This document shows positions 13,498 through 51,591 of a stretch of 64,000 bases of DNA, piece after piece; the stretch's first letter is position 1; every line of letters starts with the position of its first letter. The notes under the pieces are model-generated. The model was not told the origin of the DNA and ran no database searches. It was given only the letters and a program-made list of their open reading frames with translations. This DNA comes from Candidatus Adlerbacteria bacterium. GTDB lineage: Bacteria > Patescibacteriota > Minisyncoccia > Phycocordibacterales > SBAW01. Made by a program: the position numbers and the translations under genes. Location of the stretch: NCBI GenBank assembly GCA_003135635.1, contig PLCJ01000001.1, forward strand, positions 8,836 to 72,835. Direction: 5' to 3'.

Positions 13498-13529
13498 GCG
13501 GTATGGAGATGTAATGTGTCTCTAACCCA

Positions 13530-13571
13530 AGGTCGCCAAGTCCAAAAGGAATGGCGACCTTTAATTTTTAT
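13530..13571 (+). terminator. Rho-independent terminator
   Basis: AGGTCGCCA-agtccaaaaggaa-TGGCGACCT 9-bp stem followed by TTAATTTTTATG. Confidence 0.7.
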
Positions 13572-13648
13572 GTGTTTCAGTTCCCTAAGTAACAGTAGTT
13601 CTCCTACTAGCGGAGGGGTTTGGATGGATTGGTTTATAATGAATCCTC

Positions 13649-20473: not shown

Positions 20474-20507
20474 GCCCGGTTGGAATCTCCAACCGGGCAT
20501 TTTTTTC
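20474..20507 (+). terminator. Rho-independent terminator
   Basis: GCCCGGTTGG-aatctc-CCAACCGGGC followed by ATTTTTTTC. Confidence 0.85.
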
Positions 20508-20794
20508 TCACTAACAGTATTTGAGTTCATCAACATATACAGCACAATAAAATAGAAGAGGGTTCGCATTTCTGCGAACCCTCAAACGCTAGATTTAAGT
20601 CTAGCGAGACTTGTGGATCATCCTCCCTTCTTGGGAGAAGGGGGACGGTACGCGGCGTAGGTATGCTGATTTACGACGCCTAAACAAAGTCTCAAATGAG
20701 AGGTACCTCCTATAGGGGACAATATATGATAGGAAGGAAATTGGCAACGATTTTTTGTGAATAAAATTTTGTCGCTTACAAAATGTTCTCTTAC

Positions 20795-25568: not shown

Positions 25569-25656
25569 GCGGAGGCGGAAGGATTCGAACCTTCGGACCA
25601 GTTTCCCGGTCAGCAACTTAGCAGGTTGCTGCTTTCGACCGCTCAGCCACGCCTCC
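25569..25656 (-). tRNA. tRNA-Ser (anticodon GCU)
   Basis: Minus strand GGAGGCGTGGCTGAGCGG...CTGCTAA anticodon loop (GCT), long variable arm GACCGGGAAACTGGTCC, T-arm GAAGGTTCGAATCCTTC, acceptor closed; no encoded CCA. Confidence 0.88.
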
Positions 25657-27972: not shown

Positions 27973-28044
27973 GCGCGAGTAGCTCAATGGTAGAGCATCC
28001 GTCTTATACACGGACGGCTCCTGGTTCGAGTCCAGGCTCGCGCA
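27973..28044 (+). tRNA. tRNA with anticodon UAU (tRNA-Ile(UAU)-like)
   Basis: GCGCGAG acceptor, D-arm GCTCAATGGTAGAGC, anticodon arm TCCGT-CTTATAC-ACGGA (U33, anticodon TAT, A37), T-arm CCTGGTTCGAGTCCAGG, 3' CTCGCGC+A; followed by CC. Confidence 0.8.
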
Positions 28045-30538: not shown

Positions 30539-30915
30539 GGGGATGCATTGTCTAGACAATAGAATCATGTGGTCGGCAGTGCGAAGTAGAAGTCCGGAAC
30601 TTCTCTAACACTCCGGAAAACTATAACTGCCAAATCAGTTAGTTCGCCGTATTTCTCGGCGAATAATTTCGCGTTCGCCTACGCTAAGGCCTAACGCGAC
30701 ACTCGCTGCACAACGCTCGTACGTGCAGGCTTGGGTGTCATAATATCGAGCTGCATTGATAAGAGCGCTTTCTCTTATTAATAAAGATTTAGAGCTTAGA
30801 TACAAAATGGTTTTGTCTGTTTTTTACATTTTGTATCGAAACTATAAATAGACTACGCTTTGTAGAAACACCACCACTTCTCTGTTGCACGCGAGCTCAC
30901 TACTCGCCATCTCCA
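30539..30915 (+). ncRNA. ssrA: tmRNA (ssrA) candidate
   Basis: 5' GGGGAUG... pairs with 3' CAUCUCC-A (G3:U wobble, tRNA-Ala identity); T-arm-like GCGAG-CTCACTA-CTCGC just before acceptor; internal ORF GCC AAA...GCC TAA (30629-30694) with B. subtilis-like ACUGCCAAAUC resume context, proposed tag ending ...ANNFAFAYAKA*; directly downstream of smpB. Confidence 0.6.
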
Positions 30916-30944
30916 CAAATAAAGTTGGAATCACTTGTTTGTGC

Positions 30945-30972
30945 TTGACAAGTTTGTATTATATGCTATGAT
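30945..30972 (+). promoter_or_regulatory. Strong sigma-70-like promoter
   Basis: cTTGACAAGT-16 nt-TATGAT, 30 nt upstream of ORF 31001. Confidence 0.6.
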
Positions 30973-31525: not shown

Positions 31526-31705
31526 AATTATTATCCTTTTACTGTTAGTCAAAACTGCCCCTAGGGGTAGTTTTGATTTACAAACGATATATATTCATCG
31601 CACTAGTCACTAAGACAGGTTCTAACTTGGTCAACTCATCTCCACAGATAAAATAGCCTTATTTTATAAGGCTCTATAGAGTCAGATCCTTCGTGCACAC
31701 TACAC

Positions 31706-31733
31706 TTGACAAGTAAGCATTATACGATACAAT
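31706..31733 (+). promoter_or_regulatory. Strong sigma-70-like promoter (same extended -35 as 30945)
   Basis: cTTGACAAGT-16 nt-TACAAT upstream of ORF 31762. Confidence 0.6.
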
Positions 31734-31761
31734 ATAAACCTCAATCTTGGCTTAGAGCTTT

Positions 31762-38592: not shown

Positions 38593-38750
38593 ATCCCGCG
38601 TGAGCGGGATTGACTGTCAGACGACGGAAGCAAGTGTCTCTTGTAAAGCTAGGTGGGTACTTTAAGTGAAGCGCCAAGGCGCACCAACAAGATCAAGTTC
38701 CCTAAAACACTTAAGGACATTGCCTCCGCTGTCTACCGTTAATTATACAC

Positions 38751-49774: not shown

Positions 49775-50419
49775 CTACACAGCAACTCCAGTCAAAAGCG
49801 AAAATAGCCAGGAGAGAGCTGCGGTAAAAAAAGGAGAAAGCGCATAAAAAATAATAAGTATGAGAAGCATGCCAGGAAGGAGTCCGATGCGTTCAAAATT
49901 GCTGCGAAACATGGCGTAGGTCTGGGAAAGCCCCGAAGGCAATATGCCGGAAAGTACTTTGGAGCCATCAAAGGGTGGTATAGGGATGAGGTTAAAGAGA
50001 GCAAGAAGCATGTTGATATAAACAATGGCAGCAAACGCGCTTAGCATGGGTGCGCTCATTGCCACTGCTCCAAAACGAATGGTGAGGCCGAATATAAGCG
50101 CGATGCAAATGTTTGTCCCTGGCCCCGCAAATGCGACCAGCGTTTCGTCATACCGGCCAGGTAAATTATCAGGATTGTATGGTACTGGTTTTGCGTAGCC
50201 GATCAGTATAGGAGAGCCGGTCAACCCTAAGAAAAGGGGCAAAATGATCGAGCCGATGGGATCAATATGTGGAAGAGGGTTTAGAGTAAGTCGGCCCATA
50301 AGTCTTGCGGTCGGATCTCCCAACATATCTGCAACGTACCCATGAGCGACTTCATGGAGAATGACGGAAACAATAAGCACCACAAGCCCGAATACAATTT
50401 CTATTTGCATAATGTACAA
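49775..50419 (-). CDS. Site-2 protease family (M50) intramembrane zinc metalloprotease
   Basis: HEVAHG (HExxH) in TM1, NLIPIPPFDGSKV (LDG) motif; alternative start 50410. Confidence 0.8.
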   Translation of the reverse strand: MYIMQIEIVFGLVVLIVSVILHEVAHGYVADMLGDPTARLMGRLTLNPLPHIDPIGSIILPLFLGLTGSPILIGYAKPVPYNPDNLPGRYDETLVAFAGPGTNICIALIFGLTIRFGAVAMSAPMLSAFAAIVYINMLLALFNLIPIPPFDGSKVLSGILPSGLSQTYAMFRSNFERIGLLPGMLLILIIFYALSPFFTAALSWLFSLLTGVAV

Positions 50420-50447
50420 AAAATGATACCATAATTTGCTTAACTAT

Positions 50448-50690
50448 ATGGCAAAAATCTGTCCCATCACGAAAAAAGGTTCGAAAGTCGCCGGCGGCTA
50501 TAGTAACCGCGTGCGTGCTACAAAATTCAATCCAACGGGATCTGTACGCAAACAGCCAAATATGCAGAAGAAGCGCATTTTTGTACCTGAACTGAATCGC
50601 ACCATCGTCGTAACCCTTTCTACGAAAGGGATGCGAACCCTTACAAAAAACGGCGTCTACAATACTTTAAAAAAAGCTGGGGTGATATAA
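50448..50690 (+). CDS. rpmB: 50S ribosomal protein L28
   Basis: MAKICPITKKGSKVAGGYSNRVRATKFNPTGSVRKQPNMQKKRIFVPE; start trimmed to ATG 50448. Confidence 0.88.
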   Translation: MAKICPITKKGSKVAGGYSNRVRATKFNPTGSVRKQPNMQKKRIFVPELNRTIVVTLSTKGMRTLTKNGVYNTLKKAGVI

Positions 50691-50698
50691 CCCGACAC

Positions 50699-50727
50699 TT
50701 GACAAATATTGTGCTGTTGTTTAATAT
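50699..50727 (+). promoter_or_regulatory. Sigma-70-like promoter for candidate sRNA
   Basis: TTGACA-17 nt-TAATAT. Confidence 0.55.
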
Positions 50728-50734
50728 AGCGCGC

Positions 50735-50915
50735 AGAGGTTGGGTTGTGTTGCCCCACTTCCTTGGGAAATCTCCCAAGTGGTGGGCACGTGCTGCACAG
50801 TCATAGGTGGGAGACCCGATGCGGTTTCCAGTCCAGACATCCCTTGGATGTCGACACACACACTTCACAACCTATGGGGACCTCGGCTGCGTCAGCAACC
50901 GGGGTCCTTTATTAT
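50735..50915 (+). ncRNA. Candidate small RNA (~180 nt), family unassigned
   Basis: Between consensus promoter and intrinsic terminator GGACCUCGG-cugcgucagcaa-CCGGGGUCC + UUUAUU (50878-50915); internal hairpins CCACUUCCUUGGG-aaaucu-CCCAAGUGGUGGG and GACAUCC-cuu-GGAUGUC; GC-rich island in AT-rich spacer; short antisense/sense ORFs look spurious. Confidence 0.45.
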
Positions 50916-50997
50916 TTACATATAGTAATTACTTTATTCATAAAATTTTAAAAAGTGTATACTTAGAAATGAACACTACTAGTAATAAACAACTTCT

Positions 50998-51591
50998 ATG
51001 GCATACGAAGAAAAAAAATTTAATCTCCCCGACCTCATAGATATTTCAAAAGAAAGTGTCATTGCGCATCTTGGTCTCTACGCAGGATATGTAAAAAACT
51101 GCAATGCACTCATGAGCCTGGAGAAAGAACTTCGGGGGGACGCCGCCAGCAATACACATGCTCTTGCTGAAGTTGTACGCCGGTTTGCTTTTGAATTTGA
51201 TGGCATGCGCATGCATGAATACTACTTTCAACAGTGGGAAGAGGGAGCAAACGCGCTTGATGGTGCTGGCGCCCTGGGCAGCGCACTCATACAGCAGTTC
51301 GGCAGCATTGTGGAGTTTGAGAAACAGCTCCGTAGTGTCGGTATGATGCGCGGTGTCGGTTGGGCAGTACTCTTTTTTGATCCGGCAAGCAGCCTCTTCC
51401 ACATCGTGTGGGTGGGCGAGCACATGCAAGGACATTTGGCTGGAGTGCCTATCATTTGCGGGCTTGATGTATGGGAGCACGCCTATATTGCCCAGTTTGG
51501 AGCGGGGGGACGAAATGCCTATATTGACGCTTTCTTCAAAAATCTTAATTGGAAAGTAATGGAGAAGCGCTTTAGTGCCGCGATAAAATAA
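50998..51591 (+). CDS. Fe/Mn superoxide dismutase family protein (divergent N-terminus)
   Basis: C-terminal GWAVLFFDP...ICGLDVWEHAYI and MHEYYFQQW match SOD signatures; N-terminal helical hairpin shortened, only one His where HHxKHH is expected. Confidence 0.7.
   Translation: MAYEEKKFNLPDLIDISKESVIAHLGLYAGYVKNCNALMSLEKELRGDAASNTHALAEVVRRFAFEFDGMRMHEYYFQQWEEGANALDGAGALGSALIQQFGSIVEFEKQLRSVGMMRGVGWAVLFFDPASSLFHIVWVGEHMQGHLAGVPIICGLDVWEHAYIAQFGAGGRNAYIDAFFKNLNWKVMEKRFSAAIK

What the first reader, a model, noticed from the sequence alone, without database searches (positions are those of the whole stretch)
50699..50915. Candidate ~180-nt sRNA with its own promoter and terminator between rpmB and the SOD-like gene
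A consensus promoter (TTGACA-17-TAATAT) is followed by a GC-rich, highly structured segment containing at least three perfect hairpins. It ends in a stem-loop + U-tract terminator ~80 nt before the SOD start. The size and stand-alone signals are compatible with 6S RNA or another trans-acting sRNA. An SRP RNA domain IV GGAA motif and RNase P P4 are not evident.
Basis: seen in the sequence. Interest (0 to 1): 0.5.

Follow-up and report, generated by a model that had tools for sequence, protein, structure and literature searches.

The report
Orphan small-RNA candidate after rpmB
Between the ribosomal protein L28 gene and a superoxide dismutase gene of an uncultured Adlerbacteria (CPR) bacterium lies a ~180-base unit with a promoter, a folded RNA and a terminator; it looks like a small RNA gene, matches no known RNA family, is missing from every related genome checked, and its function is still a guess.

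Summary
A sigma-70-type promoter (TTGACA-17-TAATAT, 50699-50727) sits 9 nt after the rpmB stop codon. It is followed by a G+C-rich core (50734-50876) with a closing helix and three stable hairpins, then a strong hairpin plus U-tract (50877-50917) about 80 nt before the SOD start. The + strand folds better than shuffles and better than the - strand.

It is not 6S, SRP, RNase P or tmRNA, nor any Rfam family at E<=10. A rod-like 6S-type fold is 17 kcal/mol worse than the branched fold.

It is probably not a conserved SOD leader. SOD keeps its own conserved -10 (TATACT) downstream of the terminator. Six related species with known rpmB surroundings, and about 17 Patescibacteria SOD loci, lack the element.

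No homologue turned up in phage, plasmid, viral or metagenome DNA, in a six-frame protein search, or with a covariance model. Three independent assemblies of the same species carry it unchanged, so it is not an assembly artefact.

Best reading: a lineage-specific, stand-alone (or rpmB-3'UTR-type) small RNA of unknown class, probably trans-acting. Without covariation or expression data this stays unproven. Interest is modest.

The parts
50699..50727 (+). Sigma-70-type promoter: -35 TTGACA (50699-50704), 17-nt spacer, -10 TAATAT (50722-50727). The predicted start is near 50733-50735. The -35 begins 9 nt after the rpmB stop codon (50688-50690).
   Evidence: 10/12 match; only 6 sites with a perfect -35 in 128 kb of both strands, 4 of them intergenic.
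50734..50742 (+). P1, 5' strand (CAGAGGUUG). It pairs with 50868-50876 and closes the branched core. It contains the tandem GGUUG-GGUUG (50738-50747).
   Evidence: Pair probabilities 0.79-0.97; present in both MFE and centroid.
50754..50786 (+). Hairpin A: lower stem 50754-59/50781-86 (one U-G pair), upper stem 50762-68/50773-79 (7 perfect pairs), loop AAUC.
   Evidence: Pair probabilities 0.6-1.0.
50787..50809 (+). 23-nt linker CACGUGCUGCACAGUCAUAGGUG with poorly defined pairing. It contains the self-complementary 8-mer GCACGUGC (50786-50793). In the MFE part of it pairs with 50743-50750 (P2), but with low probability.
   Evidence: no pair above 0.5 here.
50810..50829 (+). Hairpin B: GGAGACC / GGUUUCC (7 pairs, one G-U), loop CGAUGC.
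   Evidence: Pair probabilities 0.96-1.0. The - strand fold of this hairpin carries a mismatch, which fits an RNA read from the + strand.
50831..50855 (+). Hairpin C: lower stem GUC/GAC, bulge CA, upper stem GACAUCC/GGAUGUC (7 perfect pairs), loop CUU.
   Evidence: Pair probabilities 0.73-1.0.
50856..50876 (+). C/A-rich, G-free strand ACACACACUUCA (50856-50867) followed by the 3' strand of P1 (CAACCUAUG, 50868-50876).
50877..50917 (+). Intrinsic-terminator-like hairpin (50877-50908, 10+3 pairs, loop GUCA) with a U-tract UUUAUUAUUU. It works on the + strand only. It is also the first terminator downstream of rpmB.
   Evidence: -24.1 kcal/mol, z=-5.6; the reverse strand has no U-tract.
50958..50963 (+). 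Context, not part of the RNA: the SOD-proximal -10 TATACT, downstream of the element's terminator. It marks where the ancestral rpmB-SOD spacer resumes.
   Evidence: The same TATACT/CATACT motif lies upstream of SOD in L001, L002, L004, L006, L009-L012 and L014. The spacers of relatives align to 50928-50985.

Best explanation
The segment is a lineage-specific small transcription unit inserted into the rpmB-SOD spacer of one Candidatus Adlerbacteria species. A strong sigma-70-type promoter just after the rpmB stop codon drives a ~180-nt RNA. The RNA folds into a closing helix with three hairpins joined by long linkers and ends at a strong intrinsic terminator. That terminator also ends rpmB transcripts, so the unit is built like a 'type I' 3'UTR small RNA (own promoter, shared terminator). 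It belongs to no described RNA family. The most likely mode of action is a trans-acting regulatory RNA, either base-pairing or protein-binding. The only candidate target found is weak: a 9-bp match between its 5' end and codons 9-12 of the neighbouring SOD mRNA.

Shown: the promoter-like site, the fold, the terminator-like hairpin, the absence from relatives, and the absence of family matches. Inferred: that it is transcribed as a discrete RNA, that it is functional, and that it acts in trans.
For: Signals and fold:
- Promoter.
- Fold better than shuffles and better on + than on -.
- G-U pairs in helices A, B and the terminator, which would be A-C mismatches on the other strand.
- Terminator at -24.1 kcal/mol with a U-tract.
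- G+C 0.57 against 0.23-0.29 in the flanks.
- Identical in three independent assemblies, so not an assembly artefact.

Independence from SOD:
- SOD has its own conserved -10 downstream of the terminator, and the spacers of relatives align to that part only.
- No statistically unusual antiterminator: 85% of shuffled 17-nt tails and 14% of shuffled 11-nt tails pair as well.

Lineage restriction:
- Absence from relatives with the same gene order fits fast-evolving accessory sRNAs better than riboswitches or housekeeping RNAs.

Supporting hints:
- A second unit of the same build elsewhere in the window (20548-20747, - strand) suggests this genome uses such modules.
- SOD ranks 2nd of about 66 translation-start regions in a crude accessibility-corrected pairing scan.
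Against: - There is no homologue anywhere, so no covariation. The structure rests on thermodynamic prediction from a single sequence.
- The core alone has only z=-2.9.
- There are no expression data.
- The nearest relatives lack the element, so it could be recent, neutral DNA.
- The proposed seed (the 5' end) is buried in P1 (pair probability 0.97). The target site lies at +25 to +33, outside the usual window for blocking initiation. Rank 2 of 66 is weak, and only about 8% of a typical genome of this group was scanned.
- My homologue searches in large collections needed exact matches at 14 bases, so diverged homologues could have been missed.
Confidence: 0.45

Rival explanations
1. Cis-acting leader or attenuator of SOD. 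The strong promoter is a second, upstream SOD promoter. The branched core is a ligand- or protein-binding domain, and the hairpin plus U-tract is a conditional terminator that gates read-through into SOD.
For: - Same orientation as SOD and directly upstream.
- P1 abuts the terminator with no spacer, as in riboswitch expression platforms.
- A register-shifted alternative fold exists. The 5' GAGGUU can pair with the terminator's 5' strand GACCUC, and GGUUGUG with CACAACC. This is the MFE of the nascent transcript, 5.5 kcal/mol better than the core with an unpaired tail.
- The U-tract is interrupted (UUUAUUAUUU), so some read-through is plausible.
Against: - The alternative pairing is no better than with shuffled tails.
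- The terminator wins by 19 kcal/mol.
- An 80-nt A+T-rich spacer with SOD's own conserved -10 lies between terminator and gene.
- About 17 Patescibacteria SOD loci have short upstream spacers and no such element.
- No Rfam cis-regulatory family matches.
- Riboswitch classes are normally widespread, not confined to one species (general knowledge).
Confidence: 0.15
2. No RNA function of its own. The segment is recently acquired or expanded spacer DNA at a recombination-prone junction. Its terminal hairpin serves simply as the rpmB terminator, possibly with a structured, stabilising 3'UTR, and the promoter match is fortuitous or idle.
For: - The rpmB-SOD junction is variable among relatives: 41 nt, 93-96 nt, two inserted genes, or a different neighbour.
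- L004 and L006 have only a plain terminator at this place.
- The element is absent from all relatives and has no homologue.
- The core z-score is moderate.
Against: - A perfect -35 with a 17-nt spacer exactly at the start of the structured segment is unlikely by chance.
- G+C is enriched 2-fold over the flanks.
- Four stable helices carry strand-specific G-U pairs.
- It is not a recognisable pseudogene: six-frame translation finds nothing.
- It is not a repeat or MITE within 64 kb.
Confidence: 0.25
3. A highly divergent 6S-type RNA that binds RNA polymerase holoenzyme by mimicking an open promoter.
For: Length of ~180 nt, own strong promoter, 5' and 3' parts pair to form a closing helix, high structure content.
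Against: - No match to the Rfam 6S models even at E<=10 in a 191-nt search.
- The stable local hairpins give a branched fold. The best rod-like pairing of the two halves is -42.7 against -60.0 kcal/mol.
- A housekeeping RNA should be present in close relatives, but it was not found within +-3 to 10 kb of the syntenic region. This is weak evidence, because the rest of those genomes could not be searched.
Confidence: 0.05
4. A small protein-coding gene, for example the 61- or 68-codon open frames on the + strand, or a ~20-codon peptide after the AGAGG at 50735.
For: Two + frames are open across the whole segment. An SD-like AGAGG lies 5-7 nt before TTG/GTG codons.
Against: - The long frames run through the terminator hairpin.
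- The translations are Cys/His/Pro/Gly-rich, as expected from G+C-rich RNA.
- None of the six frames has any relative among 5.8 billion proteins.
- No gene was called here in two independent assemblies.
Confidence: 0.03

Closest known systems
'Type I' 3'UTR-derived small RNAs of enterobacteria (e.g. MicL, DapZ); named from my own knowledge, not tested here
   Same: The promoter lies at the very end of, or just after, an upstream ORF. The RNA shares the intrinsic terminator of the upstream mRNA. It is a short structured RNA that is typically lineage-restricted.
   Different: No sequence or structural homology. No Hfq or ProQ context is known in Patescibacteria. No validated target. Here the promoter lies just after, not inside, the ORF.
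6S RNA (Rfam RF00013)
   Same: About 180 nt, own promoter, 5' and 3' ends pair.
   Different: Branched rather than rod-like with a central bubble. No covariance-model match. Not conserved in relatives as far as could be searched.
Terminator-type riboswitch or attenuator leaders
   Same: A multi-helix junction closed by P1, directly followed by an intrinsic terminator, upstream of and co-oriented with a gene.
   Different: An independent conserved promoter separates it from the gene. No significant antiterminator. No family match. Absent from all orthologous SOD leaders.
sRNAs that repress superoxide dismutase mRNAs (RyhB/FnrS on sodB/sodA in E. coli, RsaC on sodA in S. aureus); from my own knowledge
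   Same: A possible pairing of a small RNA with a sod mRNA (9 bp).
   Different: Those RNAs are not homologous to this one and are regulated by Fur, FNR or Mn. The pairing here is short, lies at +25 to +33, and is statistically weak.

Membership tests
6S RNA | Match to the family covariance model (Rfam RF00013 and related) | tested here: not met
   No 6S hit at gathering score or at E<=10 on 451-nt and 191-nt searches.
6S RNA | Rod-like fold: long closing stem, large central bubble, terminal stem | tested here: not met
   The MFE and centroid are branched (closing helix plus three hairpins). The best pairing of the 5' half with the 3' half is -42.7 against -60.0 kcal/mol.
6S RNA | Binding to sigma-70 holoenzyme and templating of product RNAs | not testable with these tools
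   Needs biochemistry or RNA-seq.
SRP RNA (4.5S / Bacteria_small_SRP) | Domain IV hairpin with GNRA tetraloop and conserved symmetric/asymmetric loops; covariance-model match | tested here: not met
   No SRP hit at E<=10. Hairpin loops are AAUC, CGAUGC, CUU and GUCA. The only AGCA lies in the terminator stem, without the matching 5' loop.
RNase P RNA | P4 helix formed by conserved regions CR-I (GAGGAAAGUCC) and CR-V; covariance-model match; size of 300 nt or more | tested here: not met
   No hit. The core is 143 nt. AGUCC at 50830-50834 has no convincing CR-V partner on manual inspection.
tmRNA / tRNA-like | tRNA-like domain found by ARAGORN or Rfam | tested here: not met
   ARAGORN finds nothing in 50600-51000. 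The genome's tmRNA is at 30539-30918.
Known riboswitch / cis-regulatory leader families (Rfam) | Covariance-model match and conserved association with the downstream gene | tested here: not met
   No match. SOD loci of about 17 Patescibacteria relatives lack the element. The T-box-like and B12-box-like strings I noticed by eye (AGGUGGGAGACCCG) are not backed by the T-box or cobalamin models.
Terminator-type attenuator (generic) | A mutually exclusive antiterminator that is better than chance | tested here: not met
   The alternative pairing gains 5.5 kcal/mol. 85% of shuffled 17-nt tails and 14% of shuffled 11-nt tails gain as much.
TIGR array (TIGR-Tas guide RNA arrays of CPR bacteria and phages; PMC12045711) | Tandem ~36-nt units with edge/loop repeats, or stem-loop units with C/D-like motifs, next to a Nop-domain Tas gene | tested here: not met
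   No tandem periodicity. Hairpin loops are only 3-6 nt. The neighbours are rpmB and SOD. Family features taken.
Bacterial small RNA gene (generic kind) | Own promoter, intrinsic terminator, non-coding, intergenic | tested here: met
   This rests on sequence signals only.
Bacterial small RNA gene (generic kind) | Discrete transcript detected | not testable with these tools
Repeat / MITE / mobile element | Multiple copies, terminal inverted repeats, target-site duplication | tested here: inconclusive
   Single copy within the 64-kb window. No convincing TIR or TSD. No match in phage, plasmid or viral collections. The rest of the genome could not be searched.

The most novel reading that the evidence does not exclude
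The element is the first seen member of a new class of structured RNA in CPR bacteria. It could be a protein- or polymerase-binding RNA with a four-way-junction core, or a riboswitch-like attenuator that couples an oxidative-stress or metal signal to SOD expression from a strong upstream promoter. Its relatives would have been missed because the large collections could only be searched with exact patterns.
Probability: 0.07. Interest if true: 0.7.

Novelty: new member of a known kind. Interest (0 to 1): 0.3.

Why it matters
Regulatory RNAs of Patescibacteria (CPR) are almost unexplored. My literature searches found no paper on 6S RNA in CPR and essentially nothing on their small RNAs. If this unit is a real, expressed small RNA next to SOD, it would be a concrete entry point into RNA-based regulation, possibly of oxidative-stress defence, in these reduced-genome epibionts. 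A second module of the same build in the same window hints that such units may be common there. As it stands, it is one unconserved candidate in one uncultured species, so its value is as a lead for transcriptomics rather than a discovery.

Tried and rejected
Searches that found nothing:
1. Rfam at gathering score on the whole window, and at E<=10 on 451 nt and 191 nt. The only hits were chance-level (ftsZ-DE, rpfG, Yfr17, SNORD42) in the terminator and spacer.
2. nhmmer and blastn of the element against 63 SOD loci and against the window.
3. blastn in distant mode against the phage and plasmid collections.
4. Five viral-contig scans with exact or purine/pyrimidine-coded patterns from hairpins A, B and C, the linker and the CA-rich strand.
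5. Metagenome scan with a hairpin-A pattern: 0 hits.
6. Metagenome scan with a gap-tolerant hairpin B+C pattern: 17 hits, all chance. Five lie in 21-nt tandem-repeat arrays and most others in coding sequence, e.g. L073 lies inside a 333-aa ORF.
7. All six reading frames concatenated and searched against 5.8 billion proteins, to catch spurious ORFs called over homologous RNAs: nothing at E<=10.
8. SOD and M50-protease homologue searches, to find closer relatives: the nearest are 72% and 77% identical, so no sister strain or species is available.
9. Covariance model R1 of the core against the window and 33 loci, with filters off for two 16-20 kb syntenic loci: only itself.

Ideas considered and dropped:
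- T-box: the AGGUGGGAGACCCG string is too far from the terminator and there is no model hit.
- Cobalamin B12 box: GGAGACC is present but there is no model hit.
- TIGR array.
- tRNA-like cloverleaf.
- Retron, bridge or omega RNAs: no RT, IS110 or TnpB gene is adjacent.
- rRNA fragment: no Rfam hit.
- Remnant homology to the L001 spacer: a shared TCCAGACAT, not significant.
- Designed antiterminator.
- My first duplexfold target scan was meaningless because loop size was unlimited. It was replaced by a windowed, accessibility-corrected scan.

Full report
CONTEXT
The window comes from a Patescibacteria (CPR) genome close to Candidatus Adlerbacteria. The best genome hits of the SOD-like protein are Adlerbacteria/Paceibacterota MAGs at 68% identity or less. 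The local gene order is rpsG and rpsL (-), an M50 site-2 protease (49775-50419, -), rpmB/L28 (50448-50690, +), the element, an Fe/Mn-type SOD (50998-51591, +), RNase H (-) and recJ (-). Relatives keep the same order.

Yes.
- Promoter. The scan finds exactly one site in 50300-51200: TTGACA-17-TAATAT at 50699-50727. The scan's own null (1.4 per 900 nt) is not impressive. However, sites with a perfect TTGACA, a 16-18 nt spacer and an acceptable -10 occur only six times on both strands of the whole window, and four of these are in the ~10% that is intergenic. Perfect-TTGACA sites also occur in the spacers flanking the tmRNA gene (30945-30972 and 31706-31733).
- Fold of the whole unit. 50730-50915 folds at -83.8 kcal/mol on the + strand (z=-4.1, no shuffle as good). 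The - strand gives -74.8.
- Fold of the core. Without the terminator, 50734-50876 has z=-2.9 on + and -1.9 on -.
- Stable helices. Those with pair probability above 0.7 are a closing helix P1 (50734-42/50868-76), hairpin A (50754-86), hairpin B (50810-29) and hairpin C (50831-55). The linkers (50743-53, 50787-50809, 50856-67) have no well-defined pairing, so P2 and P3 of the MFE are uncertain.
- Strand. G-U pairs in A, B and the terminator make the + strand the better RNA.
- Terminator. The hairpin 50877-50908 (-24.1 kcal/mol, z=-5.6) is followed by UUUAUUAUUU. The reverse strand has no U-tract.
- Composition. G+C is 0.57 in the core and 0.23-0.29 in the spacer that follows.
- Not an artefact. 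The segment is identical in a Logan assembly and a JGI assembly of the same species.

WHAT IT IS NOT
- Not a known RNA family. No Rfam family matches at gathering score or at E<=10, and ARAGORN and TRF are negative.
- Not 6S-like in shape. Pairing the two halves against each other gives -42.7 kcal/mol, against -60.0 for the branched fold.
- Not a repeat within the window.
- Not a recognisable pseudogene or small gene. The six frames have no relative among 5.8 billion proteins. The long open frames run through the terminator. No gene was called here in two independent assemblies.
- Not a TIGR array, the guide-RNA arrays known from CPR bacteria. It lacks 36-nt periodicity and a Nop-domain neighbour.

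IS IT A LEADER OF SOD?
Probably not.
- Relatives with the same rpmB-SOD adjacency have spacers of only 41 nt (L064), 93 nt (L001) and 96 nt (L004, L006), without the element.
- L004 and L006 carry just a plain terminator after rpmB.
- Two further relatives have other things at this junction: MaoC next to rpmB in L084, and a lactamase_B gene plus a 99-aa ORF in L085/L089.
- A -10-like TATACT or CATACT lies upstream of SOD in the window (50958-63) and in L001, L002, L004, L006, L009-L012 and L014. The spacers of relatives align to window 50928-50985, the part downstream of the element's terminator. SOD therefore keeps its ancestral promoter, and the element (about 50691-50920) is an insertion between rpmB and that promoter.
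- None of about 17 Patescibacteria SOD loci has a long upstream spacer or a match to the element.
- I found a register-shifted alternative in which the 5' GAGGUU pairs with the 5' strand of the terminator. Shuffled tails pair equally well in 85% of trials for the 17-nt tail and 14% for the 11-nt tail, so this is not evidence of an antiterminator.

HOMOLOGUE HUNT
Everything was negative.
- DNA collections: phages and plasmids, five viral scans and two metagenome scans.
- The 17 hits of the second metagenome scan are tandem repeats, coding sequence or otherwise unrelated DNA with no similarity beyond the pattern.
- The spurious-ORF trick found nothing.
- Covariance model R1 found only itself in the window plus 33 loci, including two 16-20 kb syntenic loci searched with filters off.
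- SOD and M50 searches show that the nearest sequenced relative is only 72-77% identical at the protein level. No close relative exists that could supply covariation.

Two limits apply. Collection scans required 14 exactly matching bases. The remainder of the relatives' genomes could not be read.

HOW IT MOST LIKELY WORKS
The anatomy is that of a small RNA gene placed directly behind rpmB. The promoter starts 9 nt after the stop codon. No terminator lies between rpmB and the element, so rpmB transcripts must also end at the element's terminator. This is the build of 'type I' 3'UTR small RNAs (my knowledge of MicL and DapZ; not tested here). Lineage restriction is typical of trans-acting sRNAs and atypical of riboswitches or housekeeping RNAs.

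A crude accessibility-corrected pairing scan against about 66 translation-start regions in the window puts the neighbouring SOD mRNA second. The pairing is GAGGUUGGG with CCCGACCUC at +25 to +33. This is a lead only. The seed is buried in P1, the site lies outside the usual initiation window, and only a fraction of the genome was scanned.

My probabilities:
- About 0.45 that this is a functional, discretely transcribed small RNA of a new family. Within that, trans-acting base-pairing is the likeliest mode.
- 0.25 that it is functionless inserted DNA whose hairpin merely terminates rpmB.
- 0.15 that it is a cis-acting SOD attenuator.
- 0.05 for a divergent 6S-type RNA.
- 0.03 for a small protein.

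NOVELTY AND INTEREST
It is a new, unclassified member of a familiar kind (a bacterial sRNA gene candidate), in a phylum where such RNAs are hardly known. Without conservation or expression evidence, a specialist would file it as a reasonable candidate rather than a surprise. Interest is 0.3.

The most novel reading not excluded is the founding member of a new CPR structured-RNA class, or a riboswitch-like SOD attenuator. I put that at about 7%.

Noticed in passing
window 20548-20747 (- strand): A second unit of the same build. Just after the stop of the minus-strand gene (20795) comes a promoter-like TTGCCA-17-TATTGT (20747-20719). About 135 nt with three perfect hairpins follow (20500-20760 minus strand: -79.5 kcal/mol, z=-6.1), then a terminator at 20583-20558 with UUCUAUUUUA. 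No Rfam family matches at E<=10. It shares only the 9-mer UCUCCCAAG with the finding, which has roughly a 0.1 chance of occurring at random.
   Followed up: partly
window 50924-50933 and 50981-50986; L014, L011, L012 upstream of SOD: A perfect 10-bp palindrome AGTAATTACT lies between the element's terminator and the SOD -10. The same 10-mer lies next to the SOD -10 in L014, and AGTAAT half-sites recur near the SOD start in several relatives. It may be an operator of a SOD regulator.
   Followed up: partly
window 50958-50963; L001, L002, L004, L006, L009-L012, L014 upstream of SOD: A conserved -10-like TATACT/CATACT lies 10-50 nt before the SOD start codon and there is no evident Shine-Dalgarno sequence. 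In L004 and L006 the spacing implies a nearly leaderless SOD mRNA.
   Followed up: partly
rpmB-SOD junction in L064/L088, L001, L004, L006, L084, L085/L089: This junction is a variable spot in otherwise conserved synteny (T2SSE-TIM-PGK-HIT-recJ-RNaseH-SOD-rpmB-M50-rpsL-rpsG-fusA). Relatives show 41-96 nt spacers, a plain terminator, two inserted genes (lactamase_B plus a 99-aa ORF), or a different neighbour (MaoC).
   Followed up: yes
window 50786-50793: A self-complementary 8-mer GCACGUGC sits in the poorly paired 23-nt linker of the RNA. It could mediate RNA dimerisation, or be a DNA-level CACGTG-type protein site.
   Followed up: no
window 30539-30918, 27973-28044, 25570-25656: A tmRNA gene (90.9 bits) and two tRNA genes are the only Rfam families at gathering score in the 64-kb window.
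   Followed up: no
L068, L069, L072, L074, L076 (metagenome JGI26493J50217): Several contigs of one metagenome consist largely of arrays of a ~21-nt tandem repeat (consensus about GATATTTGATGGGTGTCCTGGA). My search pattern hit them by chance and they are unrelated to the finding.
   Followed up: no
window 13498-13648, 31526-31761, 38593-38750: Other intergenic regions have strongly negative folding z-scores (-4.4 to -5.9 with mononucleotide shuffles). They may be terminators or further RNA candidates.
   Followed up: no
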